In this document: positions 33,602 through 54,682 of the stretch, in pieces
How the letters are laid out: every line of letters starts with the position of its first letter
Position numbering within the stretch: the first letter of the stretch is position 1
Source of the DNA: Escherichia phage vB_EcoM_JNE01
Reading direction: 5' to 3' (one strand)
Sequence record: OR670491
DNA length: 64,000 nt
Translations under genes and position numbers: made by a program
The notes under the pieces: generated by a model
Database searches by the model: none
Seen by the model: the letters and a program-made list of their open reading frames with translations, nothing else
Told to the model about the DNA's origin: nothing

Positions 33602-33608
33602 AATATAC

Positions 33609-33640: not shown

Positions 33641-33650
33641 GAGAAAATTA

Positions 33651-34377: not shown

Positions 34378-34943
34378 AGGCCAAAGATTTAGCGGCATTA
34401 CTGATGCAGAATCCTGAAATGGAAGTGTATCATGAAAATTGGCACAGTGATGATATGTGCGAGGTATATTATTCCCCAGAAACAATTGATGGGATTGAAA
34501 TTACTCCCAGTGGTGTATTCATCAAGACTGCAAGTGTTGATTTCAATGACAGTCGTGAAATTAAACTCCCGTGTGATAAACCAATCATTGGAACAATTGA
34601 CCTAGTATTCCACCAGGAACGTCAGATTGATACTGAAAATGAAGATGGTGAACAGGTTGCTGATGTTGCCAATGTCATTTTCCCTTTTTACTATTCTGAT
34701 TCACAACCAATGCACGGTAATGATTTCTTCCGTGAACTTTTGGAAGATGGTGAGGTATATGGTCGTGATGGAAATGTATTTGCACTTGATGAGAACTACG
34801 AACCAGACCACAACACTTGGCAGTTCTATACACCAGAAGATGTTATGGAAGTAAAAGTACTAACATCATTTGACGAACAGTGGAATGTACAGTATACTTC
34901 AATGAAGTTTGAAGAAGCTAAAAAATACTTTGAAACCAAATAA
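34374..34943 (+). CDS. hypothetical protein (N-terminus paralogous to 10832 gene)
   Basis: 189 aa; ATGA overlap. Confidence 0.5.
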   Translation: MKAKDLAALLMQNPEMEVYHENWHSDDMCEVYYSPETIDGIEITPSGVFIKTASVDFNDSREIKLPCDKPIIGTIDLVFHQERQIDTENEDGEQVADVANVIFPFYYSDSQPMHGNDFFRELLEDGEVYGRDGNVFALDENYEPDHNTWQFYTPEDVMEVKVLTSFDEQWNVQYTSMKFEEAKKYFETK

Positions 34944-34968
34944 GATTATCAAATAAGGATCTAATAAT

Positions 34969-35253
34969 ATGAAAATTGTTGCAAGTGCGTGGATGGGATT
35001 TGAGGATAAAACTACTGGTTACGAATCTAGCCTAATCGTTGAAAGTACTGAAGAATTAAAACGATTTAAAGCTGAAACCGATGATGATGTATTTGATATT
35101 GTATACACTTATCATCTCATCCCTAACGATACCGACTATGACAAATATTATTATGATCCAGACAGCCTCATGGAGCTAGTGTCTTGTACTGAAAATGAAG
35201 TAAATGAGACAACGGCACTACTAATGTTGAGTACTGTCCCAGCAAAGGGGTAG
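34969..35253 (+). CDS. hypothetical protein
   Basis: 94 aa ORF with RBS. Confidence 0.45.
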   Translation: MKIVASAWMGFEDKTTGYESSLIVESTEELKRFKAETDDDVFDIVYTYHLIPNDTDYDKYYYDPDSLMELVSCTENEVNETTALLMLSTVPAKG

Positions 35254-35256
35254 TTT

Positions 35257-35742
35257 ATGTATACACTTATTTTCTTACGTGAGCCAGACGGTGACAGTAC
35301 TGATGGTGTTGTTGAATTTCATGGTGCTGACTCCATTGTTGCAGTAGAACGACTTATCAAAGCTGTTGTTCGTAGGCAGGTTCTTCTTGAACGTACTAAC
35401 AAAGGAAAATACACTTATGGTGAATGTGGCTTTGTACTGCTGAAAAATGGCGAATTAGTTGATGAATACAATAGTTCTTTTTCAAACATGTATTCTGATT
35501 TTGAATGTATTTCTCAATCTAAAGAAAAATACAGCATAAACAAAGTTGTGCAACAAATTTCCAGACTTCTATCAAGACAAACAAGTTTTATCAATGACCA
35601 GAAAACTGATGAGCGATTCGTATCAAATTCATTAAAACCTTTGTATGAACGTTTGGAAAAAGAAAATATGGAGCGTAAACGTCTAAAAGAATTGATGGAA
35701 AAGTATCCTGATATGGTGAAAGAATATGGCAAAGAGATCTAA
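35257..35742 (+). CDS. hypothetical protein
   Basis: 161 aa. Confidence 0.45.
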   Translation: MYTLIFLREPDGDSTDGVVEFHGADSIVAVERLIKAVVRRQVLLERTNKGKYTYGECGFVLLKNGELVDEYNSSFSNMYSDFECISQSKEKYSINKVVQQISRLLSRQTSFINDQKTDERFVSNSLKPLYERLEKENMERKRLKELMEKYPDMVKEYGKEI

Positions 35743-36046
35743 TTTATCATATGAAGCATGTGAAACATACATGACCAAAGATGGAAAGGAACATCGAGGG
35801 GTTAAGCCAGAGTACGTAGTGCTACGTGAAGTTCTGTTGAATGAAAGTTACGGCAGCAATCGCCGTAACAAGATCTTAGATTTACTAAGAAGCGGAATTG
35901 AAATTGCAGTAAATCGCAAGTACTCTGTCCAGACGAAAGATGATCCAGATATCAAGAAATTGATTAAGGACGGTAAAATTGAAATGTTCAATGTAGCTAC
36001 TGGTCCGAAATCAAAATGCACATACTTAAGGATTAAGAATGGGTAA
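35726..36046 (+). CDS. hypothetical protein
   Basis: 106 aa. Confidence 0.4.
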   Translation: MAKRSNLSYEACETYMTKDGKEHRGVKPEYVVLREVLLNESYGSNRRNKILDLLRSGIEIAVNRKYSVQTKDDPDIKKLIKDGKIEMFNVATGPKSKCTYLRIKNG

Positions 36047-36620
36047 ACTAATATATTACTATGGGAGTATGAGTTCAGGTAAAAGTACTAACTTATTACA
36101 AACAGCATACAACCATAAAAAGAATGGAATGGAAGTGGTTTATCTCACCAGTGCATTAGATGACCGATACGGGGTTGGTACGATTAAATCCAGAATTGGC
36201 ATCGAAGCCCAGGCAGAGATTATCCCAAAAGATGACAGTACTTTATTATTGGACATTAAGAAACGTCTTGAGAAGAACTTAGATATTAACAGTATCTATG
36301 TTGATGAATGCCAGTTCCTGAATAAAGAACAAGTTGATATTCTTTCTGAAATTGCAGATGAATACAATGTTGACGTTTACTGTTATGGTATTCGTACTGA
36401 TTTCGAAACAAATCTTTTTGATGGTTCACGACGTTTGTTCGAAATTGCAGATGAAATCCATCAGCTACATAATGTGTGTGAAAACCAAAAATGTGGTCAC
36501 CCAGCAACAATGAACGTCCGCATAGCAAACAGTACTGATAAAGTTTTCATTGGTGGTGATGAATCATATAAAAGTATGTGCAGAAAATGCTATAAAGAAT
36601 ACATGAGGAAAAAGAAATGA
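36039..36620 (+). CDS. tk: thymidine kinase
   Basis: P-loop YYGSMSSGKST, conserved VDECQF and C-terminal zinc-ribbon cysteines (CxxC ... CxxC); 193 aa typical of type II TK. Confidence 0.9.
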   Translation: MGKLIYYYGSMSSGKSTNLLQTAYNHKKNGMEVVYLTSALDDRYGVGTIKSRIGIEAQAEIIPKDDSTLLLDIKKRLEKNLDINSIYVDECQFLNKEQVDILSEIADEYNVDVYCYGIRTDFETNLFDGSRRLFEIADEIHQLHNVCENQKCGHPATMNVRIANSTDKVFIGGDESYKSMCRKCYKEYMRKKK

Positions 36621-36841
36621 TTGATAACTTTCTAAAATCTATTACTCAAAGAGTATTTGGTGCTTTACTGGATAGTATCAAATTAGTATTCAGTACTGTC
36701 TATATGCTTATTATTGTATGTCTATTTTCTTTAGTACTGCATTTTGTACCAACATGGCTAGTTATTACTGCTATTATTGTATTCCTGGCATTTGGTGTTT
36801 ATGGAACATACCTGGCAGAACTTGAAGATTCAGACGTGTAA
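36617..36841 (+). CDS. small membrane protein
   Basis: 74 aa, two hydrophobic helices. Confidence 0.4.
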   Translation: MIDNFLKSITQRVFGALLDSIKLVFSTVYMLIIVCLFSLVLHFVPTWLVITAIIVFLAFGVYGTYLAELEDSDV

Positions 36842-36847
36842 CACATT

Positions 36848-36871
36848 AGACCCTTTATGGGTCTATTTTTT
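36848..36871 (+). terminator. intrinsic terminator
   Basis: AGACCC-TTTAT-GGGTCT then ATTTTTT. Confidence 0.65.
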
Positions 36872-36882
36872 AAGGAAAATAC

Positions 36883-37362
36883 ATGGAACCTATCTTTGGT
36901 GCATTGAAGCGTTTTGTAGATATTATATCTCATACTAACGTTCTCTATAATGACAATGACAGTACTGTAAAAATGATGGAAGTACTGGGATACACAGACG
37001 TACAAAGTGTGTATTATGACGGTATCATGGTCAGAGGTATCGAAGGAGATTGTCGATTATCTTACATGGGTATGATTGACACCTTTGTTGTACAGAAAGG
37101 AAAGATTGAAATTGTCCTTGAAGTACGTTATACAGGTTCATCAAACACAATATATTACAATTGTACCCGTACTGATTGTGCATATGAAACAGACTTTGAC
37201 CAGCAAACGACTATGCAATCCAGACCAATCGATTACCCTGATGATTCTTTTGTGCAAATTCATAAGGATTTATTTGATTTATGTGCTACAATGTCAGAGA
37301 GTGAAGACGTATATTACTTCCCAATCATCACAGTAAGAGAGAATGGTAATGCGATGGCGTAA
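36883..37362 (+). CDS. hypothetical protein
   Basis: 159 aa. Confidence 0.45.
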   Translation: MEPIFGALKRFVDIISHTNVLYNDNDSTVKMMEVLGYTDVQSVYYDGIMVRGIEGDCRLSYMGMIDTFVVQKGKIEIVLEVRYTGSSNTIYYNCTRTDCAYETDFDQQTTMQSRPIDYPDDSFVQIHKDLFDLCATMSESEDVYYFPIITVRENGNAMA

Positions 37363-37747
37363 ACATAAAGTGAAACAGCTTGAAAAAATTGTCAAGAAGT
37401 TTTATAGCAAAAAAAGTGATCCAATGATGGTTATGCTACGTGACAGTATAGGGGTACGAAAGTATCCTGAATGCTTAACCAACTCTATTGGTCGCATGAA
37501 CAATCGATACTACGTTAATGATTATGCAAGTGCCGAAACCTCTTTTTTCGGAAATCGTGTATCTGTACCATCATACGTTCATTCAAAAGTGAAGCGAAGC
37601 CGTGTTCAAGGTGTTCTGCATGGTTATTTGCTGATTACGATGGAAGAATTAAACAAAGAGTTAGGTACTAACTACACCCAAGGCTGCATAGACAATATCA
37701 AGTTCATAAAAGATTTGGACGAAGAGTTAGATGATGATACAATGTAA
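37343..37747 (+). CDS. hypothetical protein
   Basis: 134 aa. Confidence 0.45.
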   Translation: MVMRWRKHKVKQLEKIVKKFYSKKSDPMMVMLRDSIGVRKYPECLTNSIGRMNNRYYVNDYASAETSFFGNRVSVPSYVHSKVKRSRVQGVLHGYLLITMEELNKELGTNYTQGCIDNIKFIKDLDEELDDDTM

Positions 37748-37777
37748 ATTGTACAACTGGAAAAAGGAAAATGAATA

Positions 37778-37909
37778 ATGAACGGATTAAAGAAGTTTGG
37801 AACTGACGTTCTTAAGTGCATTCGATACACTTATGACGCTAATCCAGAAATGACTGCAATTGTGGGTGTTTTCATTGCACTCGTTGTTTTATCTTGTATT
37901 ATGGTGTAA
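37778..37909 (+). CDS. small membrane peptide (uncertain)
   Basis: 43 aa ORF not in track, C-terminal TM segment, RBS ggaaaaagga. Confidence 0.3.
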   Translation: MNGLKKFGTDVLKCIRYTYDANPEMTAIVGVFIALVVLSCIMV

Positions 37910-37912
37910 AAT

Positions 37913-38116
37913 ATGATTGAAATTAATGCTGATGTATATTGTAGTGCTGCACCAAATTACTTCATTTATGCACTAAGTACTTTTGGTGATACAGAAGGTG
38001 AAACTTTTGTTTTAGTAGATAATACTACATGGTACAAAACAAGTAATAAAATTCCGAAAGATGTTTTGGAAACTTATGTTCGTATTGAAAATAAAAACAT
38101 ATATGTAAATTTATAG
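37913..38116 (+). CDS. hypothetical protein
   Basis: 67 aa. Confidence 0.4.
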   Translation: MIEINADVYCSAAPNYFIYALSTFGDTEGETFVLVDNTTWYKTSNKIPKDVLETYVRIENKNIYVNL

Positions 38117-38123
38117 GTAAAAT

Positions 38124-38534
38124 ATGATTGAAATGGAAGGAACTCTGGTGTATGATCCAGATCGTGGCACTATGAAAAAGAAGAAGGACTTCTGGTTAGT
38201 ACTGCAACTTCCATTACAGTTGGTTCGATACTACCAGTACTTCATCAGAACTGACTTACATATTGATATTAAAGACCCACAATGGGGAGCACATGTCAGT
38301 ATCGTTCGTGGTGAAGTGCCACCAAATCCAGAGTACTGGAAAAAGTACGATGGTATGAAAGTTAAGATTAAGTTCGAACCTTTCATCGAAGAAGTAAAAG
38401 ACAATAAGAAACCTGGGTCATTCTTTATCATAGAGTTTGAAGATGATTTCATTGCACAAATTCGTGATGAACTTGGTTTAGCATCTAAATATTTCAAATA
38501 TCACATCACCATTGGTAGAACATACTACGATTAA
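38124..38534 (+). CDS. hypothetical protein
   Basis: 136 aa. Confidence 0.45.
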   Translation: MIEMEGTLVYDPDRGTMKKKKDFWLVLQLPLQLVRYYQYFIRTDLHIDIKDPQWGAHVSIVRGEVPPNPEYWKKYDGMKVKIKFEPFIEEVKDNKKPGSFFIIEFEDDFIAQIRDELGLASKYFKYHITIGRTYYD

Positions 38535-38701
38535 TGTGGTTATTTGGTAAATAGGTCTTGATATAACTAAAAAGTATGCTATACTACTTAAATGTTCCAA
38601 AGAACAACTGAGTACTGTAGAAAGTCCAATGAGGCTTTTGCAAATGGCCTCTTTGCCCTCTTTGTGATTGCTCATTGTTAACAACCAACAAAGGAGGCGT
38701 T

Positions 38702-39628
38702 TTGAAAAAAGCGAAAAAAGCACTGAAAACTAAAATTGCCGTAGGCGTATTAGTTTCATCAGCCCTATTCGCTGCTATTGGATTTTATGGTTTTTCTCAA
38801 AGTGATCATGTACCATCATTAGACGAAAGTCAGGTGCATAATTTAAAACCACAGTTTACTCAAATTCAAAAGCAGGAACTACCACAGGTATCAGTACCAA
38901 AAGCAGTTCCAAGCAGCGAGAAACATTATACGGTTCAACCTGGAGATAGTTATTATTCTATTGCACAGAAATTTAAACCTAAAAATGTACAGATTGAAGA
39001 TTATGTCATTTTGTTGAAGAACATCAACTTAAATGCAACTCTTCATACTTCTCAGGGTATCTTTATCCCAACAAAAGAGGATTTGAAGAACGTATTGTTA
39101 CCAGATGTGACTGTACTGTTTGATTATAAAGATCCAGAAATTGTCAATCACATCAAAGAAGCTGAAGGTTCTATTGAATTTCAGTCCAAGAACAAACGAC
39201 GTTTACTTGGTGGGAAAGTTGGAGTTCCATATCGAAATTCTAAATTTTATCCGTATCGTGATATAAAAGGTAACTTCACTATTGGGTACGGACATTATCT
39301 TGGAAAGAAAGAATCAGATGCAAGTAAGTATCGTAATGGTATTACGAAGTCACAAGCACATAAACTTTTATTGTCTGACATGGAACGAACTAATAATGAT
39401 TTAGTTTTATTATTGAAGAAAAGAAATGCAACAAACCTTACGGCTGAACAGCAACGAATTTTATTTGAGATGGCATTTACATTAGGAGTTGATAAGTTAA
39501 ATACTTTCAATAAATTATGGAAAAGCGTTGATAATCAAAATGATAACAAGTTCAAAAAAGAAATTAAGAATTCTCTATGGTATCGTCAAGTAGGAAACCG
39601 TGCAGAATTGTTAGTTAGTAATTTGTAA
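38702..39628 (+). CDS. endolysin: GH24 (T4-lysozyme-like) muramidase with N-terminal TM/signal-anchor and LysM domain
   Basis: TM segment IAVGVLVSSALFAAIGFYGF; LysM-like YTVQPGDSYYSIAQKF; C-terminal TIGYGH...RxxLFEMAFTLG matches T4 lysozyme family; probable TTG start 38702 with RBS aaggagg. Confidence 0.7.
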   Translation: MKKAKKALKTKIAVGVLVSSALFAAIGFYGFSQSDHVPSLDESQVHNLKPQFTQIQKQELPQVSVPKAVPSSEKHYTVQPGDSYYSIAQKFKPKNVQIEDYVILLKNINLNATLHTSQGIFIPTKEDLKNVLLPDVTVLFDYKDPEIVNHIKEAEGSIEFQSKNKRRLLGGKVGVPYRNSKFYPYRDIKGNFTIGYGHYLGKKESDASKYRNGITKSQAHKLLLSDMERTNNDLVLLLKKRNATNLTAEQQRILFEMAFTLGVDKLNTFNKLWKSVDNQNDNKFKKEIKNSLWYRQVGNRAELLVSNL

Positions 39629-39677
39629 TTTACAATAAAGGATGATATGTATCATCCTTTATTTTTAAGGTAAAAAT

Positions 39678-40310
39678 ATGATATATAATGTTGGTATAAA
39701 TGATGTACCAGGTGATTCTAAATCGGATAGTGATGGTTATTATATATATGTGAAATGGAAAAGTATGATTAAACGATGCTACTCAGTTGAATATCAAAAA
39801 ATACACCATTCATATATTGGAACAACTGTATGTAATGAATGGCTTACATATTCAAATTTTAAAGATTGGTATCTAAATAATTACATAGACGGGTATGTTT
39901 TAGATAAAGACTTGATATCGGGTGATTTACAAGTATACTCACCAGTGACATGTTCATTTGTACCACAAGAATTAAATTGTTCTATTCTTGAAAGTAATAG
40001 TGCTAAAACAAAACTACCATTGGGTGTGTCATATCAACAGAAAACTAAAAATATGATAAATGAACGTTCGAAACCATATGATTCATATATAAAAATGTAT
40101 GGTAAGTTGTATCGTCTTGGTAGTTATGAATGTCCTGAACTTGCACATAAAGAATGGCAAATCGCCAAGAAAAAATATCTCGAAGAACTCATTGACAGAT
40201 ATAAAAATTCTGTTAAAATGGAAGTCATAGAAGGTATTCAGAAACGAATTGATATATTACATAATGATATAGTCAATGACGGTGTTACAATAACAATCAA
40301 TAAGATATAA
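39678..40310 (+). CDS. AP2-domain protein, homing-endonuclease-like (possible mobile ORF)
   Basis: WKSMIKRCY...YIGTTVCNEW motif plus AP2-like LGVSYQQKTKN...YGKLYRLGSYECPELAHKEW; AT-rich relative to neighbours. Confidence 0.45.
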   Translation: MIYNVGINDVPGDSKSDSDGYYIYVKWKSMIKRCYSVEYQKIHHSYIGTTVCNEWLTYSNFKDWYLNNYIDGYVLDKDLISGDLQVYSPVTCSFVPQELNCSILESNSAKTKLPLGVSYQQKTKNMINERSKPYDSYIKMYGKLYRLGSYECPELAHKEWQIAKKKYLEELIDRYKNSVKMEVIEGIQKRIDILHNDIVNDGVTITINKI

Positions 40311-40322
40311 GGTAGGTAAATT

Positions 40323-40649
40323 ATGCTAAATTTCGTTATCCAAGGTAATGTAGATGTTACTCCAGCAATTCATGACGCAATCCGCGATGAAGCAACAGTA
40401 CTAAGTAAATTTAGTGATGCTTCAGTACTGAATCTTGGTGTTCATCTGAAGAAAGAGCATAAAACACAGTACACTGTAACACTAACTTCTAATGGTAAGT
40501 CTGTTACTGCAAATGCAGCAGATTTATACAAAGCGATTAGTGATTCATTTGAAAAAATGGAAGTTGTACTTGGTAAAGACAAAAGCATTAAACTGCATCG
40601 TCGTAACCACCCAACACGTCCTCTGGACTTGACAGAAGACGAAGAGTAA
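40323..40649 (+). CDS. hpf: ribosome hibernation promoting factor / RaiA-like protein
   Basis: 108 aa; MLNFVIQGNVDVTPAIHDAIRDE...LHRRNH follows the HPF/YfiA pattern (N-terminal ITGxNVEITPALR-like, basic C-terminus). Confidence 0.6.
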   Translation: MLNFVIQGNVDVTPAIHDAIRDEATVLSKFSDASVLNLGVHLKKEHKTQYTVTLTSNGKSVTANAADLYKAISDSFEKMEVVLGKDKSIKLHRRNHPTRPLDLTEDEE

Positions 40650-40660
40650 TTTATAATAAA

Positions 40661-40690
40661 GGGACAGTATATTTCTGTCCCTTTTCTTTT
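40661..40690 (+). terminator. intrinsic terminator
   Basis: GGGACAG-loop-CTGTCCC then TTTTCTTTT. Confidence 0.65.
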
Positions 40691-40704
40691 TGGAGTTTTT
40701 TAAT

Positions 40705-41097
40705 ATGCATAGTGTATGGCTGGAAATAATCAAAACTCTTATATCAGTACATGACAAGGACTTACCTGATAATCTAGTCATTAACCGATGGTACTATCCA
40801 GACACATTTGACAGAAAGGTTGGATGCATCTTTTATCACGACGATTACGGTAAATTTTGTGGATTAATTGAAGATATCAAATCCAATGTATCTTTCTCTA
40901 TAGAAATGAACGTAGATCACATAAAATACTACAACAGTAAAATGGATGAAGAACATGATGATGTTATAATCCCTATGGATATTGACGAAGCTGAGTTTTT
41001 TCAGTTATCAACAATTTATAATTTATCTGACATTACTTATGATAATGTTAAAGACATTATTAAATTGTACGATAAAATGTATAATTACTTTTTGTGA
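40705..41097 (+). CDS. hypothetical protein
   Basis: Start refined to ATG 40705 after terminator. Confidence 0.45.
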   Translation: MHSVWLEIIKTLISVHDKDLPDNLVINRWYYPDTFDRKVGCIFYHDDYGKFCGLIEDIKSNVSFSIEMNVDHIKYYNSKMDEEHDDVIIPMDIDEAEFFQLSTIYNLSDITYDNVKDIIKLYDKMYNYFL

Positions 41098-41481
41098 TTG
41101 AGGTATAAGTTGAGAAATACATTAATTAAAGTTAATTTATCACATTTCGATCCATACCAGAAATATGAAGAAAGTAAAAGGTATAATATTAATGATGATT
41201 TCACAATATATTTCAATAGAACATACAGCACAATCATCATCACTATTTGTGATCATATAAAAATTTGTATAACAAAAGATATAATAACTTTGTACATTCA
41301 AAACAAAGAAACTGATATACCAACAGATTTGGATGAAGATGCATATGCTCAAGACGAATTCGTGAGAGATCACTTGTTGATTGAGTACGATACTTATTCA
41401 TTGATTAATTTCTACAAAGTAAATTACATTAAGTGGTTGTCTGGTGAAAGTGATGATGGTATAATAGAGTGGAGCATTTAA
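41098..41481 (+). CDS. hypothetical protein (non-ATG start)
   Basis: ORF begins at TTG 41098 with no internal ATG; AT-rich; uncertain. Confidence 0.3.
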   Translation: MRYKLRNTLIKVNLSHFDPYQKYEESKRYNINDDFTIYFNRTYSTIIITICDHIKICITKDIITLYIQNKETDIPTDLDEDAYAQDEFVRDHLLIEYDTYSLINFYKVNYIKWLSGESDDGIIEWSI

Positions 41482-41604
41482 TATGAATACAATTATGCTA
41501 GAAGAAGATTGGGGTGTTTCTGAACAAGGAACCGACGAGTACAAAGAGCCAGAATACAAGCCTAAAGGCTTCTGGGAACGTCTCTTTGACTGGTTGATGG
41601 GGGA

Positions 41605-41793
41605 GTGATGGAATATACGATATGTGCTGTAATTTGTATCTTAGCTTTAATCGGCGGCGTTGGTGTGATGGTGTATTGTGATGCAGAACCCAGTACTGAA
41701 ATTGGTATCAGAACAAATGCCAAGCCAGGGTTGAAAATCAATGAGAAGTACTGCTATAATATCAGAACTAACTCCTATGACATTTGCCTATAA
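41605..41793 (+). CDS. small membrane protein
   Basis: 62 aa with N-terminal TM helix. Confidence 0.4.
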   Translation: MMEYTICAVICILALIGGVGVMVYCDAEPSTEIGIRTNAKPGLKINEKYCYNIRTNSYDICL

Positions 41794-41802
41794 GGAAACA
41801 TT

Positions 41803-42915
41803 ATGAAAAAATATCTCGTGGGTGGATTCGTCCGCGACCGACTACTGGGCTTACGTGCTAAAGACAAAGATTATGTCATTGTCAGTGCATCTGAATCTGA
41901 TATTAAGTACTTGAAAAGTATTGGGTACAAACAAGTCGGCATTGATTTCCCTGTATTCTTGAGTCCAGAGGGAAATGAATATGCATTAGCCAGGACTGAA
42001 CGTAAAGTCGGTGTAGGCTATAATGGCTTTGAAGTTAATACTAAAGGTGTAACCTTAGAAGACGACTTATATCGCCGTGACCTCACAATCAATGCTATTG
42101 CATACGATCCAGTACTGCAAATTCACATCGACCCATACGGTGGGAAAGATGATATTAAGAATAAAGTACTGCGTCACGTTTCAGAGCACTTCAAAGAAGA
42201 CCCATTACGTGTTCTTCGTCTTGCACGCTTTGCAACACGATATAATGACTTTACAATTCACGAAAGTACTGTTACAATGTGCACTGAAATGGTTAGTACT
42301 GGTGAGTTGAATCATCTTGTACCAGACCGTGTGTATGTTGAATTTGAAAAGGCACTCACTGAAGAGAAACCTGCCAAGTTCCTTAAGACACTGGCTAATT
42401 TCGGCTATTATGAAAAAGCATTTACTAAAACACTAACCCGTAAGGTATTAGAATTGGTTGATAACATTTCAGATAATTGTACAGAAGCATATAAGCCATA
42501 TTTCATTTGGAGTGCACTACTCGAAACAGAAGAAGTAAATAAAGACTCAGTACTGAACGAATCAATTAAAATGCCCGTTAAGTACGTGAAGTTTAGCAAT
42601 TATGTAAAACGATTCCGTGATGATATCAAGACATTCCGTAAGAAAACACCTGAAGAGATGGGTGCGTTGTTACTGGAAATGAACATTCGAAATAACGGTG
42701 GGGAAGAATTCCTGTACAAAGTGCTGGAGTACTTTATTCTTCGTCGTGAAATCGACCTTGAACTTGAAGATTTGATTATTAAGGTGTATGATCGTTACAC
42801 CGATACTGTATTACCTGATATTGAAGAAATGGTTAAAGACGGTTCTCTGGACAAGAAAGATATTCGTGACTTTGTACAAGGTTTGCGTATTACTGAAATC
42901 CAGAAAATGTTCTGA
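41803..42915 (+). CDS. cca: tRNA nucleotidyltransferase (CCA-adding enzyme family)
   Basis: N-terminal MKKYLVGGFVRDRLLGL ... DxD ... GIDFPVFLSPEGNEYALARTERK ... RRDLTINA closely follows class II CCA-adding enzyme head domain. Confidence 0.85.
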   Translation: MKKYLVGGFVRDRLLGLRAKDKDYVIVSASESDIKYLKSIGYKQVGIDFPVFLSPEGNEYALARTERKVGVGYNGFEVNTKGVTLEDDLYRRDLTINAIAYDPVLQIHIDPYGGKDDIKNKVLRHVSEHFKEDPLRVLRLARFATRYNDFTIHESTVTMCTEMVSTGELNHLVPDRVYVEFEKALTEEKPAKFLKTLANFGYYEKAFTKTLTRKVLELVDNISDNCTEAYKPYFIWSALLETEEVNKDSVLNESIKMPVKYVKFSNYVKRFRDDIKTFRKKTPEEMGALLLEMNIRNNGGEEFLYKVLEYFILRREIDLELEDLIIKVYDRYTDTVLPDIEEMVKDGSLDKKDIRDFVQGLRITEIQKMF

Positions 42916-42991
42916 AATCATTGGACAAATCTTCAAGTACTGATATAATTAATGGTATCTGAACATCATATGATGAAAACGAGATAAGATT

Positions 42992-43424
42992 ATGCGTTAT
43001 AGTTGTGGTATAATATTTTATCGTGATGGTCAGATACTTGTTGGTCATACAACACGGACAGCAGCACTGGGATTTACCTAAAGGTAAAACTGAAGGTGAT
43101 GAAACATTTAAAGAAGCTGCGGTTCGTGAGTGTTATGAAGAGACAGGATTCCAAATCAATGAAGATGATTTACTTCTTCTTGGTGATGTTTCTTATAGAA
43201 AGGGTAAGAGATTAGTATTATTCTTTTATACTGCAAAGGATAAGCCAATCCCTTCAGAACTGGAATGTAAAAGTACTTATACCAACCGATACGGTAGAAG
43301 TCATCCAGAACTGGATAAGTTCATGTACATTGATGTAGAAGATTGTCAAAAGTATTTGACTGAACGAATGTGTAATAGTATAATAAAGGCTGTTAAAGCT
43401 TTTCAAAGAAACAGAAGGAAATGA
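42992..43424 (+). CDS. Nudix hydrolase with apparent +1 frameshift near 43065-43080
   Basis: ATG 42992 opens MRYSCGIIFYRDGQILVGHTTR... (typical Nudix N-terminal strand) but stops at 43081; Nudix box GKTEGDETFKEAAVRECYEETGF continues in the ORF-track frame 43023..43424. Confidence 0.55.
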
Positions 43425-43675
43425 ATATGAAAGTTAAAATTTATGGTCGTAAGACTGGCTGTAAGTTCTGTGATACTGCGAAGCAAGTATGTGAAGCGAA
43501 CAAATTTGATATGGAATTCATTGATATCGCTGAAGCTGGTATCGATGGTGTTAAACTGGCAGAAATCTGTGGTCAAGCAGTACGCCAAGTTCCACAAATC
43601 TTTGTAAACGAAGAATACGTACCAGGTGGTTGTACTGGTTTTATCGATGGTCTACGTGAAGGTCGCTGGAATTAA
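43421..43675 (+). CDS. nrdC: glutaredoxin/thioredoxin-like protein (NrdC-like)
   Basis: CxxC (CKFC) active site, VPQIF and GG motifs; 84 aa. Confidence 0.7.
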   Translation: MNMKVKIYGRKTGCKFCDTAKQVCEANKFDMEFIDIAEAGIDGVKLAEICGQAVRQVPQIFVNEEYVPGGCTGFIDGLREGRWN

Positions 43676-43917
43676 TGAATATTGATAAAGTATCATTACG
43701 TGCTAAACAATTAGCAGAACAATTTGGTATTGAGTTTAAAGTACCAGATATTAAAGCTGCTCAAGAACATGCACAACGTAAGATTCACAAATTAAAAGAG
43801 TATACTTCTAATAAAGAGAAGTATGATGAAGCTATCGCACACATTGTTGAGTCATTCAGTAAAGATGATATTTTGGCATTCTTAGATTCTGTAGCGGTTT
43901 CTAAAAACCCTAAATAA
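43675..43917 (+). CDS. hypothetical protein
   Basis: 80 aa, ATG overlaps upstream stop. Confidence 0.45.
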   Translation: MNIDKVSLRAKQLAEQFGIEFKVPDIKAAQEHAQRKIHKLKEYTSNKEKYDEAIAHIVESFSKDDILAFLDSVAVSKNPK

Positions 43918-43947
43918 TATTGAAGAACACAAGTTCTTCGTAACAAT

Positions 43948-44202
43948 TTGGGAGATACTATTATGCTCAGTTTTCGTGAACAATTAGCAAAAGGCAATTT
44001 CGCTGCTCAAGCTCAAACCAAAATTCCTAAAAAGTCAGCTTTCTTAGGGACGATTACAGAAGATGGTTATTGTGATTTTAATGCACCAGAAGATACGTGG
44101 TACATTGAAAAAGACACAAAACGTAGTAGTAGACTTCACAAAAGTACCGTCGCTCGAAAACAGCGTAAAGAATTAAAACGTATACGTTTTGGTGAAGAAT
44201 AA
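43948..44202 (+). CDS. hypothetical basic protein
   Basis: 84 aa; C-terminal RKQRKELKRIRF. Confidence 0.4.
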   Translation: MGDTIMLSFREQLAKGNFAAQAQTKIPKKSAFLGTITEDGYCDFNAPEDTWYIEKDTKRSSRLHKSTVARKQRKELKRIRFGEE

Positions 44203-44210
44203 TAAAATTA

Positions 44211-44238
44211 AGGACTCTTACAAGGAGTCCTTTCTTTT
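44211..44238 (+). terminator. intrinsic terminator
   Basis: AGGACTC-loop-GAGTCCT then TTCTTTTC. Confidence 0.65.
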
Positions 44239-44249
44239 CGGGGTATAAA

Positions 44250-44726
44250 ATGATACACGAACATATTGGTAATCTGTTTGAATTATTCAGTACTGTAACA
44301 AATGATGACGGTGTATTGCACATAATCGCTCATGGTTGTAATGCTCAAGGTAAGATGGGTTCAGGATTTGCAAAAGAATTACGAAATCGTTACTCAATGG
44401 CCTACGATGATTACAAGAAGTATGAAAAGGAAATGGGCTTTCTACGAACTGGTCAAATTTCCTATTCTGCCATCAATGATGATTTGATTATTGCAAACTG
44501 TATTACCCAAAAATGGTATGGTACAGATGGTGCAAAATACGTAAGTTATGATGCAATTGACGAAGTATTTCATAAACTAAATATGTTCTGTAAAATTGAA
44601 CGCAATGTTCATTTGCACTTCCCGAAAATTGGAGCCGACTTAGGCGGTGGTAACTGGAACGTTATCAAAGAAATCATTGACCACAGGATGGTTAATGCAG
44701 AAAAACACTTATATATTTTGAAATAA
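44250..44726 (+). CDS. macrodomain protein (TARG1/DarG-like)
   Basis: HGCNAQGKMGSGFAKEL and C-terminal FPKIGADLGGGNW resemble TARG1/C6orf130-type macrodomains (xxGxMGxGIA ... PxIGxGL). Confidence 0.6.
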   Translation: MIHEHIGNLFELFSTVTNDDGVLHIIAHGCNAQGKMGSGFAKELRNRYSMAYDDYKKYEKEMGFLRTGQISYSAINDDLIIANCITQKWYGTDGAKYVSYDAIDEVFHKLNMFCKIERNVHLHFPKIGADLGGGNWNVIKEIIDHRMVNAEKHLYILK

Positions 44727-44739
44727 CATACAAAAGGAA

Positions 44740-45057
44740 TTGACAAAAATGACTATGACCGTTAAACTACTAAACATCAACAGCATTGGCCCAGTACTAG
44801 CAGTTCTACAAAACGATGCACCAGAAGCAGTAGTTGTGAACTATCCAGCACAACTAGGCACTGATGAGAAAGGTGAAATCATTCTACGTGATTACCTAGA
44901 GTTTGTAAGTTCTGAAAAAGGTGTTATTTTCTATAAATCCAACATCATTAGTATTAGCGATGCTAACCCAGCACTAGTTGATGCATACGTAGAAGCAATT
45001 AAAGCAATCGAAGAAACGCCACGAGTCTTCGTTCCAGAAAACAAAATTATCGTATAA
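44740..45057 (+). CDS. hypothetical protein
   Basis: 105 aa. Confidence 0.45.
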   Translation: MTKMTMTVKLLNINSIGPVLAVLQNDAPEAVVVNYPAQLGTDEKGEIILRDYLEFVSSEKGVIFYKSNIISISDANPALVDAYVEAIKAIEETPRVFVPENKIIV

Positions 45058-45069
45058 TAGAGGTATATA

Positions 45070-45447
45070 ATGGCTGCTAATGAAACTAAAGTTGAAACTA
45101 TCCAAGCAATCGTAGTACTGAAAGGTACTGTCCCATCACCAGCGGAATTGGTTATGGCTGGAATGACTATTCTACACCAGTACAATCCAGCATCACCTAA
45201 CTATGTTCAAGATTATGAGGCAAAGGAATTCAATAAGCATTGGCAGTCGTGGCTAACTGACAACGAAGCAAAACAAGTTGTCTTTGAAGCAGATGATATT
45301 TTTGAACTGGAACAGATTGAGTTCTTGGCATCACAGCAATCTGTTCCATTGAGTAACTTCGGTAATGGTGAAGAGGTTCTAGTACTTGGACCATTCAGTA
45401 AAGGTGAAATCATTCATCTACTATCAAACTGCTCCGAAGTAAAGTAA
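45070..45447 (+). CDS. hypothetical protein
   Basis: 125 aa. Confidence 0.45.
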   Translation: MAANETKVETIQAIVVLKGTVPSPAELVMAGMTILHQYNPASPNYVQDYEAKEFNKHWQSWLTDNEAKQVVFEADDIFELEQIEFLASQQSVPLSNFGNGEEVLVLGPFSKGEIIHLLSNCSEVK

Positions 45448-45491
45448 TCTAATAAACAACCAGCACCTCTAAATAATGTATATAAACATTA

Positions 45492-46298
45492 ATGAGGTGC
45501 TTTTTTATGTCTTACGATTATATGGGTGGAAACCCTGATGCTCCGAATTTTGATCACAGAGAAAAACTAAAAGATGTGGTCACACAAATGTTAGGTGCAG
45601 GTGCAGTTGAAGTTGAAATCACTGATGGTCAACTCGAAATTGCAATTGATAATGCTGTTGCTAACTACCGTGCATGGAGTTCAGCTTCTAAAGAAGAAGC
45701 ATTTTTAAATATGAAATTTTACGATTCTCAGTCGGTCTATATGTTACCAACTGAAGTTGAAATCGTTAAAAAAATCTACCGCTATGGTAATGGTTATTTG
45801 AGTTCAGGTAGTGGTAACTCCGTTGACCCATTCTCACTTGCATTCACTAACTCATATTTGCTAACATCTGCTCGTAACGCAGGTGGTTATGACTTAACTA
45901 CTTATGACTTCAGTTTCCAGTTCCAAGAACTAGTGGGTCGTATGTTTGGTCGTGAAATTATATTTCAATTTAACCCAATGACTAAGAAACTAGTTATTGA
46001 CCGTGATATTCGCGGTACTGAAGAAGTACTGTTACACGTTTATCACAACATCCCTGAACCGCTCCTATTCATGCGTCAGATGAGCTATCCGTGGCTTCGT
46101 GACTGGACACTATCTGAAGCTATGATTATGCTTGGTCGTAACCGTGCGAAGTTTGCTACGCTACCAGGACCACAAGGGACATTCTCAATGGATGGTGATA
46201 CACTACGTAATGAAGGTCTTCAATTACAAGAACAGTTGAAAGAACGCTTGAAACGTTACGAAGATGGTGCAGATCCACTAGGTATGATTATAGGCTAA
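45492..46298 (+). CDS. hypothetical protein, possibly virion/neck-associated
   Basis: 268 aa upstream of sheath module; no diagnostic motif; start may be 45507 or 45522. Confidence 0.4.
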   Translation: MRCFFMSYDYMGGNPDAPNFDHREKLKDVVTQMLGAGAVEVEITDGQLEIAIDNAVANYRAWSSASKEEAFLNMKFYDSQSVYMLPTEVEIVKKIYRYGNGYLSSGSGNSVDPFSLAFTNSYLLTSARNAGGYDLTTYDFSFQFQELVGRMFGREIIFQFNPMTKKLVIDRDIRGTEEVLLHVYHNIPEPLLFMRQMSYPWLRDWTLSEAMIMLGRNRAKFATLPGPQGTFSMDGDTLRNEGLQLQEQLKERLKRYEDGADPLGMIIG

Positions 46299-46304
46299 TA
46301 AAAA

Positions 46305-46346
46305 AGACTCCTTTATGGGGTCTTTTTTCATATGTGGTGATATAAT
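46305..46346 (+). promoter_or_regulatory. terminator hairpin followed by extended -10 promoter (TGaTATAAT)
   Basis: AGACTCC-loop-GGGGTCT then TTTTTT; tgatataat at 46338-46346. Confidence 0.5.
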
Positions 46347-46373
46347 GTTTTTAAGTGAATTGAGGAATTTAAA

Positions 46374-46634
46374 ATGGGAACACAAAATTACAGAATTAAC
46401 AAATGTTATGACACATTCAAAGGTTCGGAAAGAATGTGGGAATTTGTCAAAACAGCACTTACTGACGTATTTGATAAAGAACGTTTGCATGTGTGGTGTA
46501 GCATTTATCGTTGTAATGATGTAACCAAATATGCAGTTTACTTAAGATTATTTGATGATGATGAGATTTTGAAGATTATGGTCGAATCAGCAGTTGGTAA
46601 AATTTTAAATGTATCAAAAGACACGGATGATTGA
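46374..46634 (+). CDS. hypothetical protein
   Basis: 86 aa. Confidence 0.4.
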   Translation: MGTQNYRINKCYDTFKGSERMWEFVKTALTDVFDKERLHVWCSIYRCNDVTKYAVYLRLFDDDEILKIMVESAVGKILNVSKDTDD

Positions 46635-46661
46635 TACAGTACTGAATTACATGGAGAAAAT

Positions 46662-47294
46662 ATGAAAAGGAAAATCGTAGCAGTTAATGGTACAATCGGT
46701 AGTGGTAAGAATGCATTCTCTGAACCATTCATCGATAATGGATTTACACAAATGTCTTTTGCAAAGAATCTCAAGGATTCAGTTGCAGCTATCTTTGGTT
46801 GGGATCGTGAAATGCTGGAAGGTATTACCAAAGAAAGTCGTGCTATCCGTGAAATTCCAGATGCGTACTGGTGTAAAAAACTAGGTCGTGATGATGTATC
46901 ACCGCGTTGGGTACTTCAATATTACGGTACTGACGTAGTTCGTCGTTATCTTAATAATGATATTTGGGTGTACAGTTTAGAGAAATCAATGCAAGACATT
47001 AAAGGTGATATTATCATTAGTGATTGTCGTTTTCCAAATGAATTAACGATGATTCGTGAAAATGGTGGTGTTGTTATTGAAGTACAACGAGAATTGCCAG
47101 AATGGTATAATGATGCATATCGTTATAATGTTCGTGGTGGTGATTTACCAGAAGCACTAAAAACTATTCACCCATCAGAGTGGGCTTGGATTGGTATTAA
47201 TAAACCAGATTATGTGGTTCAGAATAACAGTACCTTAGAAGAACTGAATAAACAAGCAGAATGGATTATTCACGGTATCAAAGACAAAAACTGA
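46662..47294 (+). CDS. deoxynucleoside monophosphate kinase-like P-loop kinase
   Basis: P-loop VNGTIGSGKN; YYGTDVVRRYLNNDIWV and ISDCRFPNE resemble T4 gene 1 dNMP kinase regions. Confidence 0.55.
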   Translation: MKRKIVAVNGTIGSGKNAFSEPFIDNGFTQMSFAKNLKDSVAAIFGWDREMLEGITKESRAIREIPDAYWCKKLGRDDVSPRWVLQYYGTDVVRRYLNNDIWVYSLEKSMQDIKGDIIISDCRFPNELTMIRENGGVVIEVQRELPEWYNDAYRYNVRGGDLPEALKTIHPSEWAWIGINKPDYVVQNNSTLEELNKQAEWIIHGIKDKN

Positions 47295-51995: not shown

Positions 51996-54115
<2,120 letters not shown>

Positions 54116-54145
54116 CTTAAACTACTATATTATGGAGTTATTATA

Positions 54146-54679: not shown

Positions 54680-54682
54680 GAT

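What the first reader, a model, noticed from the sequence alone, without database searches (positions are those of the whole stretch)
42992..44726. TARG1/DarG-like macrodomain plus a second Nudix: candidate counter to ADP-ribosylation-based defence
The 44250..44726 protein carries the GxMGxGIA-type glycine loop and C-terminal PxIGxGL-like motif of TARG1/DarG-type macrodomains, which remove ADP-ribose from protein or DNA. A second Nudix gene lies just upstream. The DarG macrodomain reverses DarT DNA ADP-ribosylation, and DarTG is a known anti-phage system, so a phage macrodomain is a plausible anti-DarT factor. With the SIR2-Nudix cassette this gives the genome at least four ADP-ribose/NAD-processing genes.
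Basis: partly seen in the sequence, partly recalled or inferred. Interest (0 to 1): 0.6.

Follow-up and report, generated by a model that had tools for sequence, protein, structure and literature searches.

The report
Phage macrodomain, likely anti-DarT2 factor

Summary
The window comes from an Asteriusvirus-type jumbo coliphage (98.8% identical to phage Turkey5).

**Macrodomain.** ORF 44250..44726 is a real macrodomain. The AF2 model has pLDDT 94.8, and its best structural and sequence matches are BT1257, SCO6735, Poa1p, DarG and TARG1. It is a Gln-type member of that class: Q87 sits where TARG1 has K84 and DarG has K80. This matches SCO6735, which cleaves DarT-made thymidine-ADP-ribose on ssDNA.

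**Link to AdfM.** The protein shares phrog_335 with both experimentally named "AdfM" proteins. It is 31% identical to T4 Tk.4 (hhalign 99.4%), whose deletion sensitises T4 to DarTG2. The anti-DarT reading is therefore supported by homology, but it is a new member of a known kind. RefSeq already annotates the PBECO4 orthologue as a macro domain protein.

**Caveats.**
- The C-terminal motif is PKIGADL, not PxIGxGL. Asp130 replaces a glycine whose Glu mutant cripples SCO6735.
- No experiment exists on this protein.

**The "second Nudix".** It is a T4 NudE homologue, but it is not one ORF. All E. coli Asteriusviruses examined share a 1-nt insertion, so full-length protein needs a +1 frameshift at CGG, the rarest sense codon in the window.

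Interest is modest.

The parts
44250..44726 (+). Stand-alone macrodomain gene (158 aa), AdfM/Tk.4-like and SCO6735-type. Key residues: H28, N31, K35, Q87, G128, D130.
   Evidence: ORF; phrog_335 5e-42; PDB sequence and profile matches; AF2 pLDDT 94.8; Foldseek top hits 2afc/2fg1/5e3b/6lfr/5m3e/4j5s; homology to T4 Tk.4; residue mapping.
44210..44232 (+). Conserved terminator-like hairpin (10-bp stem followed by a T-rich tail) directly upstream of the macro gene's GGGG ribosome-binding site.
   Evidence: Scan; sequence. PBECO4, vB_Ec-M-J and metagenomic relative L007 keep the stem through compensatory changes. Its function (terminator or RNA stabiliser) is inferred, not shown.
42992..43054 (+). 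5' segment of the NudE-like Nudix gene (21 codons, MRYSCGIIFYRDGQILVGHTT). It is in a different frame from the Nudix body. A GAG lies 8 nt upstream of the ATG.
   Evidence: Translations; alignment A3. The segment aligns to the T4 NudE N-terminus SAGIIF.... pN/pS is 0.09-0.14 within the frameshifted clade.
43055..43057 (+). CGG codon at the required +1 shift site (ACA ACA C GGA). Base 43055 is the extra nucleotide relative to in-frame relatives.
   Evidence: 1-nt insertion seen in alignment A3. tblastn gives 2 pieces in all E. coli Asteriusviruses listed and 1 piece in non-E. coli relatives. CGG is the rarest sense codon: 4 of 19,318 in-frame codons, and 0 of 11,688 in 32 confident ORFs.
43056..43424 (+). 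Body of the NudE-like Nudix hydrolase with a canonical Nudix box. Databases annotate it as a 132-aa ORF starting at ATG 43026.
   Evidence: Pfam NUDIX 2e-12; phrog_1185; 40% identity to T4 NudE, E 9e-21; pN/pS 0.12.
42922..42949 (+). Sigma-70-like promoter match (TGGACA-16-TATAAT with TG) in the CCA-Nudix intergenic region. It may mark the start of the Nudix-Grx unit.
   Evidence: Consensus scan only. The number of matches in the region is not above the shuffle expectation, so this is weak.
43421..43675 (+). GrxA-like glutaredoxin between Nudix and macro. Context gene, syntenic across the lineage.
   Evidence: Pfam Glutaredoxin 4.6e-9; NCBIfam GrxA 2e-17; synteny.
2903..4551 (+). Context only, about 40 kb upstream.
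   Evidence: Pfam SIR2 1.4e-19, Nudt16-like 1.7e-19, cREC_REC 6.4e-23; phrog_2162 and phrog_9999.

Best explanation
[quoted passage not shown] During infection it most likely removes the ADP-ribose that a host DarT2 toxin attaches to thymidines in single-stranded phage DNA. That would restore replication and neutralise DarTG2 immunity, making it an AdfM-type anti-defence factor.

**Inferred catalysis (SCO6735 scheme).** Gln87 is held in position by Asn31 and orients the distal ribose. No Lys/Asp dyad is involved. The glycine-rich loop 34-39 and the loop 128-134 clamp the diphosphate.

**Possible follow-on step.** The released ADP-ribose could be hydrolysed by the neighbouring NudE-like Nudix. 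This link is speculative.

**What is shown and what is inferred.**
- Shown here: the fold, the class, the residue mapping, and homology to characterised enzymes.
- Inferred: the substrate and the biological role.
For: - **Fold.** The macro fold is predicted with high confidence. The nearest structures are BT1257, SCO6735, Poa1p, DarG and TARG1.
- **Sequence profile.** The family profile reproduces the same ranking. The DarG models of NCBIfam and PADLOC hit the macro part.
- **Conserved residues.** H28, N31 and Q87 are invariant across the 55 homologues of alignment A1 and in all 118 aligned. They correspond to SCO6735 H24, N27 and Q85. Q85A abolishes SCO6735 activity and N27S nearly does.
- **Biochemistry of the closest characterised enzyme.** SCO6735 prefers thymidine-ADPr DNA over protein substrate and rescues DarT toxicity.
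- **T4 Tk.4.** It carries the same HGCN / TQ / PRIGAG motifs and is homologous (31% identity, E 6e-11; hhalign 99.4%, E 2e-21). It is the only T4 gene conditionally essential on DarTG2, and its knockout is sensitised.
- **Same PHROG.** The window protein, Tk.4 and PhiKZ AdfM all fall in phrog_335.
- **A real DarT-linked macrodomain aligns well.** hhalign to one from an enterobacterial plasmid gives 98.9%.
- **The target exists in the host species.** DarT-macro pairs occur in E. coli chromosomes, in at least 11 of 5,426 complete genomes for this one variant, several from poultry.
- **Counter-defence context elsewhere.** A homologue in a T5-like contig sits beside an anti-Gabija Gad2 gene.
- **Parallel with T4.** An Asteriusvirus also encodes a NADAR protein (PMC7824862), mirroring the AdfN + AdfM pair in T4.
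Against: - **No experiment** has been done on this protein or on any Asteriusvirus.
- **Asp130.** It occupies the position of SCO6735 Gly128 and TARG1 Gly123. The G128E mutant loses most activity, which the authors attribute to loop rigidity and to negative charge repelling DNA.
- **Lys34 equivalent.** SCO6735 Lys34, important for DNA positioning, corresponds to Ser38 here.
- **Distance.** Identity to Tk.4 is only 31%, and macrodomain substrate range is hard to read from sequence (PMC9503650).
- **Neighbours.** They are translation and tRNA genes plus structural genes, not an anti-defence island.
- **Prevalence.** DarT2 was found in only about 0.2% of complete E. coli genomes for the variant searched.
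- **What softens the Asp130 problem.** Position 130 varies in the family (G 55, D 43, A 10, V 8, E 3), while the catalytic residues stay invariant. Active PhiKZ AdfM has Ala at this position. D/E130 co-occurs with Lys/Arg35 in 45 of 46 sequences, but this association is not corrected for phylogeny.
Confidence: 0.55

Rival explanations
1. The protein is a hydrolase for low-molecular-weight ADP-ribose derivatives. Candidate activities are ADP-ribose-1''-phosphate phosphatase (as in yeast Poa1p), O-acetyl-ADP-ribose deacetylase, or degradation of ADPr-derived immune signals. It would work with the phage's Sir2, Nudix, cREC and DUF4326 proteins, or with tRNA repair.
For: - Poa1p is among the best PDB matches (profile E 1e-13; Foldseek rank 4).
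- Database labels read 'phosphatase' or 'A1pp'.
- The window carries Sir2, two Nudix genes, cREC, DUF4326 and an RlaP RNA-repair nucleotidyltransferase.
- The neighbours are a CCA-adding enzyme, a PTH2-like protein and HPF.
- Iyer et al. argue that phage Macro domains mainly target soluble ADPr derivatives.
- An acidic residue in the phosphate-binding loop is less of a problem for a small substrate than for DNA.
Against: - The homologue T4 Tk.4 has a specific DarTG2 phenotype.
- The closest characterised enzyme, SCO6735, prefers DNA-ADPr.
- The Sir2 cassette is 40 kb away, and no KptA/Tpt1 or 2H phosphoesterase was seen among the 76 window ORFs scanned.
- The two roles are not mutually exclusive.
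Confidence: 0.2
2. It reverses ADP-ribosylation of RNA or protein rather than DNA. The modification would come from another host ADP-ribosyltransferase defence (for example CmdTAC-like mRNA modification) or from the phage's own ADP-ribosyltransferases.
For: - SCO6735 and TARG1 also hydrolyse Glu/Asp-linked protein ADPr.
- The Asp130/Lys35 variant clade could reflect a shifted substrate.
- Jumbo phages often encode ARTs (PMC7824862).
Against: - No ART domain was found among the 76 window ORFs scanned against Pfam (66 at E<=1e-5, plus the 10 around the finding). The rest of the genome was not examined.
- No macrodomain is known to reverse CmdT modification; the CmdTAC paper mentions macrodomains only in its reference list.
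- The catalytic residues match the thymidine-ADPr enzymes.
Confidence: 0.12
3. It is catalytically impaired, acting as an ADP-ribose binder or decoy, or as a stoichiometric DarT inhibitor, because Asp replaces the phosphate-binding-loop glycine.
For: - G128E in SCO6735 causes substantial loss of activity.
- Catalytically dead SCO6735 Q85A still inhibits DarT by binding, so a non-catalytic protective role is conceivable.
Against: - H28, N31, Q87 and G128 are invariant in all 118 homologues aligned, which argues for retained catalysis.
- The Asp/Glu variant is conserved across a deep clade down to 46% identity, so it is not decay.
- Non-Gly residues at this site occur in active PhiKZ AdfM.
Confidence: 0.08

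Closest known systems
T4 Tk.4 = AdfM (anti-DarT factor macrodomain; HIDEN-SEQ preprint 10.1101/2025.11.20.689424)
   Same: Stand-alone ~155-aa macrodomain of a lytic coliphage. Same phrog_335. Same HGCN, T-Q and P-[KR]-I-G-A motifs, with Gln at the catalytic position. 31% identity over 150 aa; hhalign 99.4%.
   Different: Tk.4 has Gly at the position of Asp130 and a mobile loop 4 residues shorter. Its genomic neighbourhood differs (tk-vs region). Tk.4 has a demonstrated DarTG2 phenotype; this protein has none.
Streptomyces coelicolor SCO6735 (PDB 5E3B) and Bacteroides BT1257 (2FG1/2AFC)
   Same: Best PDB matches by sequence and by fold. Gln-type active site (Q85 corresponds to Q87, N27 to N31, H24 to H28). 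Long mobile loop. SCO6735 cleaves thymidine-ADPr DNA and rescues DarT toxicity.
   Different: Cellular, not phage. SCO6735 Gly128 corresponds to Asp130 here, and Lys34 to Ser38 (a Lys sits at 35). About 24% identity in the structural alignment.
PhiKZ gp104 = AdfM (Cell Rep 2026, PMC13309987)
   Same: Phage stand-alone macrodomain in phrog_335. Removes DarT2 ADP-ribose from DNA. Has a non-Gly residue (Ala) at the position-130 equivalent.
   Different: Lys-type (PTK), DarG2-like. Only a 41-residue BLAST match, 28 bits. Imported into the phage nucleus, and Asteriusviruses are not chimalliviruses.
DarG2 antitoxin macrodomain (T. aquaticus 5M31/5M3E, M. tuberculosis 5M3I; enterobacterial DarT-linked macro WP_117121976)
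   Same: Same macrodomain class: profile E 3e-12, hhalign 98.9%, PADLOC DarG 3e-9.
   Different: DarG has a catalytic Lys80, a C-terminal DarT-binding domain and an adjacent darT gene. All three are absent here.
Human TARG1/OARD1 (4J5S)
   Same: Same fold and class. The loop motifs align.
   Different: TARG1 K84 and D125 correspond to Q87 and G132; G123 corresponds to D130 (the TARG1 sequence was verified).
Yeast Poa1p ADP-ribose-1''-phosphate phosphatase (6LFQ-6LFU)
   Same: Same class (profile E 1e-13; Foldseek E 1e-9). This is the origin of the 'phosphatase' label.
   Different: More distant than BT1257/SCO6735. No KptA/2H partners were seen in the window.
T4 NudE (e.1) Nudix hydrolase
   Same: The upstream Nudix is 40% identical over 124 aa (E 9e-21), including the N-terminal strand. 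T4 NudE is annotated as active on FAD, ApnA, ADP-ribose and NADH.
   Different: The Asteriusvirus gene is split by a 1-nt insertion and needs a +1 frameshift for the full-length product.

Membership tests
Macrodomain superfamily, ALC1-like (TARG1/DarG/SCO6735) class | Three-layer alpha/beta/alpha macro fold | tested here: met
   AF2 pLDDT 94.8, pTM 0.90. Foldseek probability 1.0 to 2afc, 2fg1, 5e3b, 6lfr, 5m3e and 4j5s.
Macrodomain superfamily, ALC1-like (TARG1/DarG/SCO6735) class | Passes the Pfam PF01661 gathering threshold | tested here: not met
   14.2 bits against a cut-off of 22, although the match is full length (2-115 of 118). Many homologues and T4 Tk.4 (27.7 bits) do pass.
Macrodomain superfamily, ALC1-like (TARG1/DarG/SCO6735) class | Closer to ALC1-like members than to MacroD-type or viral nsP3 members | tested here: met
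   Profile E-values: BT1257 2e-25, SCO6735 6e-19, Poa1p 1e-13, DarG 3e-12, TARG1 2e-9, ALC1 0.02. Alphavirus and coronavirus macrodomains score 0.04 or worse.
Macrodomain superfamily, ALC1-like (TARG1/DarG/SCO6735) class | G-x-G in the phosphate-binding loop (P-R-I-G-C-G-L) | tested here: not met
   The loop reads P-K-I-G128-A-D130-L. Position 130 in the family: G 55, D 43, A 10, V 8, E 3.
TARG1/DarG Lys-type hydrolases | Catalytic lysine (TARG1 K84 / DarG K80) | tested here: not met
   Gln87 aligns with TARG1 K84 and with the PTK lysine of a DarT-linked macrodomain. It is invariant in the family.
TARG1/DarG Lys-type hydrolases | TARG1 Asp125 | tested here: not met
   The aligned residue is Gly132.
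DarG antitoxin of the DarTG2 toxin-antitoxin system | C-terminal DarT-binding domain | tested here: not met
   The protein is 158 aa and matches only positions 20-139 of the 338-position NCBIfam DarG model, 28 bits against a cut-off of 250.
DarG antitoxin of the DarTG2 toxin-antitoxin system | Adjacent darT toxin gene | tested here: not met
   The flanking genes are Nudix, glutaredoxin, small hypothetical ORFs, a PTH2-like gene and a neck protein.
SCO6735/BT1257 Gln-type thymidine-ADPr hydrolases | Gln at the catalytic position, held by a conserved Asn, with the neighbouring His | tested here: met
   Q87, N31 and H28 align with Q85, N27 and H24 (residue roles from PMC9411070). All three are invariant.
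SCO6735/BT1257 Gln-type thymidine-ADPr hydrolases | Extended 'mobile loop' after the catalytic Gln | tested here: inconclusive
   The loop from Q87 to S99 is one residue shorter than in SCO6735 and 4 residues longer than in T4 Tk.4. Block pLDDT dips to 85 there. No quantitative criterion for this feature is available.
SCO6735/BT1257 Gln-type thymidine-ADPr hydrolases | Lys34 and Gly128 (mutants lose activity) | tested here: not met
   They correspond to Ser38 and Asp130. A Lys/Arg is present at position 35 instead.
SCO6735/BT1257 Gln-type thymidine-ADPr hydrolases | Hydrolysis of DarT-made thymidine-ADPr on ssDNA | not testable with these tools
   Needs a biochemical assay.
AdfM (phage anti-DarT2 macrodomain) | Homology to an experimentally validated AdfM | tested here: met
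   T4 Tk.4: BLASTP E 6e-11, hhalign 99.4%. Same phrog_335 as Tk.4 and PhiKZ gp104.
AdfM (phage anti-DarT2 macrodomain) | Loss of the gene sensitises the phage to DarTG2, and the protein neutralises DarT2 | not testable with these tools
   Needs genetics or biochemistry. No published data link Asteriusvirus to DarTG2; the only paper holding both terms discusses a kinase.
T4 NudE-type Nudix hydrolase (the upstream gene) | Nudix box GX5EX7REUXEEXGU and homology to NudE | tested here: met
   The box GKTEGDETFKEAAVRECYEETGF is read directly from the sequence. Pfam NUDIX 2e-12. 40% identity to T4 NudE.
T4 NudE-type Nudix hydrolase (the upstream gene) | Single uninterrupted ORF | tested here: not met
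   A 1-nt insertion at 43055 splits the N-terminal 21 codons from the body.

The most novel reading that the evidence does not exclude
The Asteriusvirus and related jumbo-phage clade carries a derived macrodomain variant. It has an acidic residue (Asp/Glu130) in the phosphate-binding loop, paired with Lys/Arg35. This may have shifted its specificity away from DarT2 thymidine-ADPr DNA towards another ADP-ribosylated target or ADPr-derived signal that has not yet been linked to a phage counter-defence. Separately, the neighbouring NudE gene may be expressed only through a programmed +1 ribosomal frameshift at CGG, the phage's rarest codon.
Probability: 0.2. Interest if true: 0.55.

Novelty: new member of a known kind. 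Interest (0 to 1): 0.3.

Why it matters
If confirmed, AdfM-type counter-defence would extend from T-even phages and chimalliviruses to the PBECO4/121Q group of 350-kb coliphages. These phages are candidates for phage therapy, and the result would help predict their host range on DarTG2-carrying E. coli, including poultry isolates.

The natural Gly-to-Asp variation in the phosphate-binding loop is a ready-made test of what that residue does in ALC1-like macrodomains.

The by-product may be of more interest to specialists in translational recoding than the macrodomain itself. A NudE gene conserved across a genus needs a +1 frameshift at the rarest codon, and every database record examined annotates it as a truncated ORF.

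Tried and rejected
1. **A dedicated Nudix-macro 'cassette': rejected.** The order CCA / Nudix / Grx / ... / macro / PTH2-like / neck / dNMP kinase / sheath is ordinary lineage-wide synteny in jumbo relatives. It is absent in T4 and in a T5-like contig. A conserved terminator-like hairpin also separates the macro gene from the upstream genes.

2. **Membership of DarG or TARG1 proper: rejected.** There is no catalytic Lys, no DarT-binding domain and no darT gene.

3. **Orthology with PhiKZ AdfM: rejected.** The only match is a 28-bit local hit, and PhiKZ AdfM is Lys-type. The relationship is at PHROG/class level only.

4. **Net charge or pI as a discriminator for DNA binding: uninformative.** The validated AdfMs are as acidic or more so.

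5. **Sequencing error as the cause of the Nudix frameshift: rejected.** At least seven independently sequenced isolates share it.

6. **Transcriptional slippage: unlikely.** There is no homopolymer at the site.

7. **A search for phage ADP-ribosyltransferases found none in the window.** This covered the 66 other window ORFs at Pfam E<=1e-5 plus the 10 ORFs around the finding at E<=0.1. The rest of the genome was not examined.

8. **The ORF carrying the DUF4326 hit was not pinpointed.**

9. **The LeRoux 2022 DarTG paper is not in the held library**, so statements about DarTG2 rest on papers that cite it.

10. **The AF2 coordinates could not be inspected.** The orientation of Asp130 and a possible Lys35 salt bridge therefore remain untested.
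Full report
**Source and observation**

The window is 98.8% identical over the tested 5.5 kb to Escherichia phage Turkey5. It is about 81% identical to PBECO4-type jumbo phages of the genus Asteriusvirus.

ORF 44250..44726 (+, 158 aa) exists as described. The Pfam Macro match covers the whole model but falls below the gathering threshold (E 0.042, 14.2 bits against 22). On Pfam alone the call would be shaky. Other evidence settles it:
- phrog_335 at 5e-42.
- phmmer against PDB sequences: BT1257 5e-15, SCO6735 2.7e-9, Poa1p 1e-5.
- A 55-sequence family profile (A1): BT1257 2e-25, SCO6735 6e-19, Poa1p 1e-13, DarG 3e-12, TARG1 2e-9, ALC1 0.02. MacroD-type viral domains are only marginal.
- An AlphaFold2 model with pLDDT 94.8, whose best Foldseek hits are the same proteins at probability 1.0.
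- The DarG models of NCBIfam (1e-6) and PADLOC (3e-9) match, but only over their macro part.

The PBECO4 orthologue is already annotated 'macro domain-containing protein' in RefSeq. The domain call is therefore correct and not new.

**Active site**

The residue roles below come from the SCO6735 study (PMC9411070). I mapped them using the HMMER alignment and a 121-sequence MAFFT alignment that includes T4 Tk.4, PhiKZ gp104 and TARG1. The TARG1 sequence was checked against the PDB.

| Window residue | SCO6735 | TARG1 / DarG |
|---|---|---|
| H28 | H24 | |
| N31 | N27 | |
| Q87 | Q85 | TARG1 K84, DarG K80 |
| G128 | G126 | |
| D130 | G128 | TARG1 G123 |
| G132 | | TARG1 D125 |
| S38 | K34 | |

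An hhalign comparison with a genuine DarT-linked macrodomain from a Klebsiella plasmid (98.9%) also places Q87 opposite the PTK lysine.

The protein is therefore not a Lys-type TARG1/DarG enzyme. It is Gln-type, like SCO6735, BT1257 and T4 Tk.4. H28, N31, Q87, P125 and G128 are invariant in all 118 homologues aligned.

The loop reads PKIGADL. In SCO6735, the G128E mutation at the position of D130 causes substantial loss of activity.

Three observations soften this concern:
- Position 130 is variable in the family (G 55, D 43, A 10, V 8, E 3, Y/T/S 1 each) while the catalytic residues stay fixed.
- D/E is conserved through a clade reaching down to 46% identity. It co-occurs with Lys/Arg35 in 45 of 46 sequences, against 19 of 53 for the Gly group. 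The Fisher test gives 8e-12, but it is not phylogeny-corrected.
- The experimentally active PhiKZ AdfM has Ala at this position.

**Experimental anchors in the literature**

- SCO6735 efficiently removes DarT-made thymidine-ADPr from ssDNA. It prefers DNA to protein substrate, does not touch guanine-ADPr, and rescues DarT toxicity. Q85A abolishes this activity and N27S nearly abolishes it.
- PhiKZ gp104 was named AdfM. It removes DarT2 modifications from DNA and protects chimalliviruses from DarTG2 (PMC13309987).
- Independently, the HIDEN-SEQ preprint found tk.4 to be the only T4 gene conditionally essential on DarTG2. A clean knockout was sensitised, and that study also named the gene adfM.

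I fetched T4 Tk.4. It carries HGCN, Y-T-Q and PRIGAGIGKGNW. It is 31% identical to the window protein over 150 residues (E 6e-11) and matches the family profile at 99.4% (E 2e-21).

Tk.4, PhiKZ gp104 and the window protein all fall in phrog_335. PhiKZ gp104 itself is Lys-type and gives only a 28-bit local match.

The family occurs in 1,854 of 50,697 phage records at E<=1e-3.

No paper in the library links Asteriusviruses to DarTG2 through this gene.

**Context**

The gene order is: CCA-adding enzyme, Nudix, glutaredoxin, small ORFs, macro, PTH2-like, neck protein, dNMP kinase, tail sheath. This order is kept in divergent jumbo relatives at 55% and 44% macro identity. The closeness of Nudix and macro is therefore lineage synteny.

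In T4 the two homologues are about 6 kb apart. In a T5-like contig the macro homologue instead lies beside Gad2, a SLOG (cpYpsA) gene and an HD gene.

A 10-bp hairpin followed by a T-rich tail sits at 44210..44232, immediately before the macro ribosome-binding site. It is preserved by compensatory changes in PBECO4, vB_Ec-M-J and L007. This suggests transcriptional punctuation between the upstream genes and the macro gene.

DarT-macro pairs similar to the Klebsiella plasmid system occur in at least 11 of 5,426 complete E. coli genomes, several from poultry. The proposed target therefore exists in the host species, but it is rare for that variant.

The window also contains Sir2, a Nudt16-like Nudix, cREC, DUF4326 and RlaP. 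Iyer et al. report a NADAR protein in the Asteriusvirus Ecwhy_1.

**The 'second Nudix'**

It is a T4 NudE homologue: 40% identity, E 9e-21. RefSeq describes T4 NudE as active on FAD, ApnA, ADP-ribose and NADH.

The gene is not continuous. ATG 42992 opens a 29-codon frame, and the Nudix body lies in another frame. Databases annotate only a 132-136-aa ORF starting at ATG 43026, which has no Shine-Dalgarno sequence.

Relatives from Erwinia, Pectobacterium, Yersinia, Klebsiella, Salmonella and metagenomes have one in-frame ORF of 141-144 aa. Every E. coli Asteriusvirus listed gives two tblastn pieces.

The alignment shows a single inserted base: ACT ACC GGA has become ACA ACA C GGA. The shift codon is CGG, the rarest sense codon in the window. 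It occurs 4 times in 19,318 in-frame codons and 0 times in 11,688 codons of 32 confident ORFs, although the CGG trinucleotide occurs 220 times in any frame.

Within the frameshifted clade both parts of the gene look selected. The body has pN/pS 0.12 at pS 0.55. The 5' segment read in its own frame has pN/pS 0.09-0.14. The same substitutions read in the annotated frame give L-to-S and V-to-D/G changes.

RNA from 43040 to 43130 folds better than shuffled controls (z = -3.7).

I read this as a candidate programmed +1 frameshift. The alternative is an N-truncated protein expressed from a newly created extended -10 element (TGGTATAAT at 43005..43013). The data are few, and re-pairing of tRNA-Thr in the +1 frame would be poor, so the mechanism is open.

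**Mechanism and rivals**

| Reading | Confidence |
|---|---|
| AdfM-type orphan hydrolase that strips DarT2 thymidine-ADPr from phage ssDNA using the SCO6735-type Gln/Asn mechanism | 0.55 |
| Hydrolase for soluble ADPr derivatives (Poa1p-like phosphatase, OAADPr deacetylase or signal degradation) | 0.2 |
| Reversal of RNA or protein ADP-ribosylation | 0.12 |
| Impaired enzyme acting as a binder or DarT inhibitor | 0.08 |

The fold, class, residue mapping and homologies are shown here. The substrate and the role in infection are inferred.

**Verdict**

The mechanism has since been demonstrated in homologues, and the domain is already annotated. This is a new member of a known kind.

Two things go beyond the known: the Asp-for-Gly loop variant, and the conserved frameshift in the neighbouring NudE gene.

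Noticed in passing
window 42992..43424 (shift site 43052..43058): The NudE-like Nudix gene is split by a 1-nt insertion shared by all E. coli Asteriusviruses examined. Relatives from other hosts have it in frame. Full-length protein needs a +1 frameshift at CGG, the rarest sense codon in the window. Both parts look to be under purifying selection. Every database record examined annotates only the truncated ORF.
   Followed up: partly
window 44210..44232: A terminator-like hairpin lies immediately upstream of the macro gene's ribosome-binding site. Compensatory base changes preserve it in PBECO4, vB_Ec-M-J and a metagenomic relative.
   Followed up: partly
window 2903..4551: Three adjacent genes: Sir2 (PF02146), a Nudt16-like Nudix (PF22327) and a cREC 'cyclic-phosphate processing receiver' domain protein (PF20274). 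This is a predicted NAD/ADP-ribose-derivative processing cassette of untested function.
   Followed up: partly
window, one of the 66 ORFs scanned in 1..41481 or 53090..63293 (ORF not pinpointed): One ORF hits Pfam DUF4326 (E 7e-25). Iyer et al. 2022 predict this rhodanese-phosphatase-like domain to process terminal phosphates of ADPr derivatives. Other hits in the same scan: RlaP RNA-repair nucleotidyltransferase, CapR, and PhoH plus PIN.
   Followed up: no
window 40323..47294: A cluster of translation-related genes surrounds the finding: an HPF/RaiA ribosome hibernation factor (40323..40649), a CCA-adding enzyme (41803..42915) and a weak PTH2-like peptidyl-tRNA hydrolase (45070..45447). It lies directly before the neck and tail-sheath module.
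   Followed up: no
L009 3186..6500 (metagenomic T5-like contig): A 44%-identical macro homologue lies among cpYpsA (SLOG), an HD_4 domain gene and Gad2 (anti-Gabija). This looks like an anti-defence neighbourhood.
   Followed up: no
L018 1170..3616 and E. coli chromosomes (hits H166-H175): A DarT (thymidine ADP-ribosyltransferase) and macro pair found on a Klebsiella IncF/IncR plasmid has relatives in at least 11 of 5,426 complete E. coli genomes. Several are avian, turkey or chicken isolates. The closest relative of the window, phage Turkey5, was isolated on an E. coli strain named Tur5.
   Followed up: partly
L017 (Klebsiella phage fENko-Kae01, OR228459 113000..124000): In this in-frame relative, the record notes say the Nudix, CCA enzyme and HPF were 'identified with LC-MS/MS analysis'. 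The macro orthologue carries no such note.
   Followed up: no
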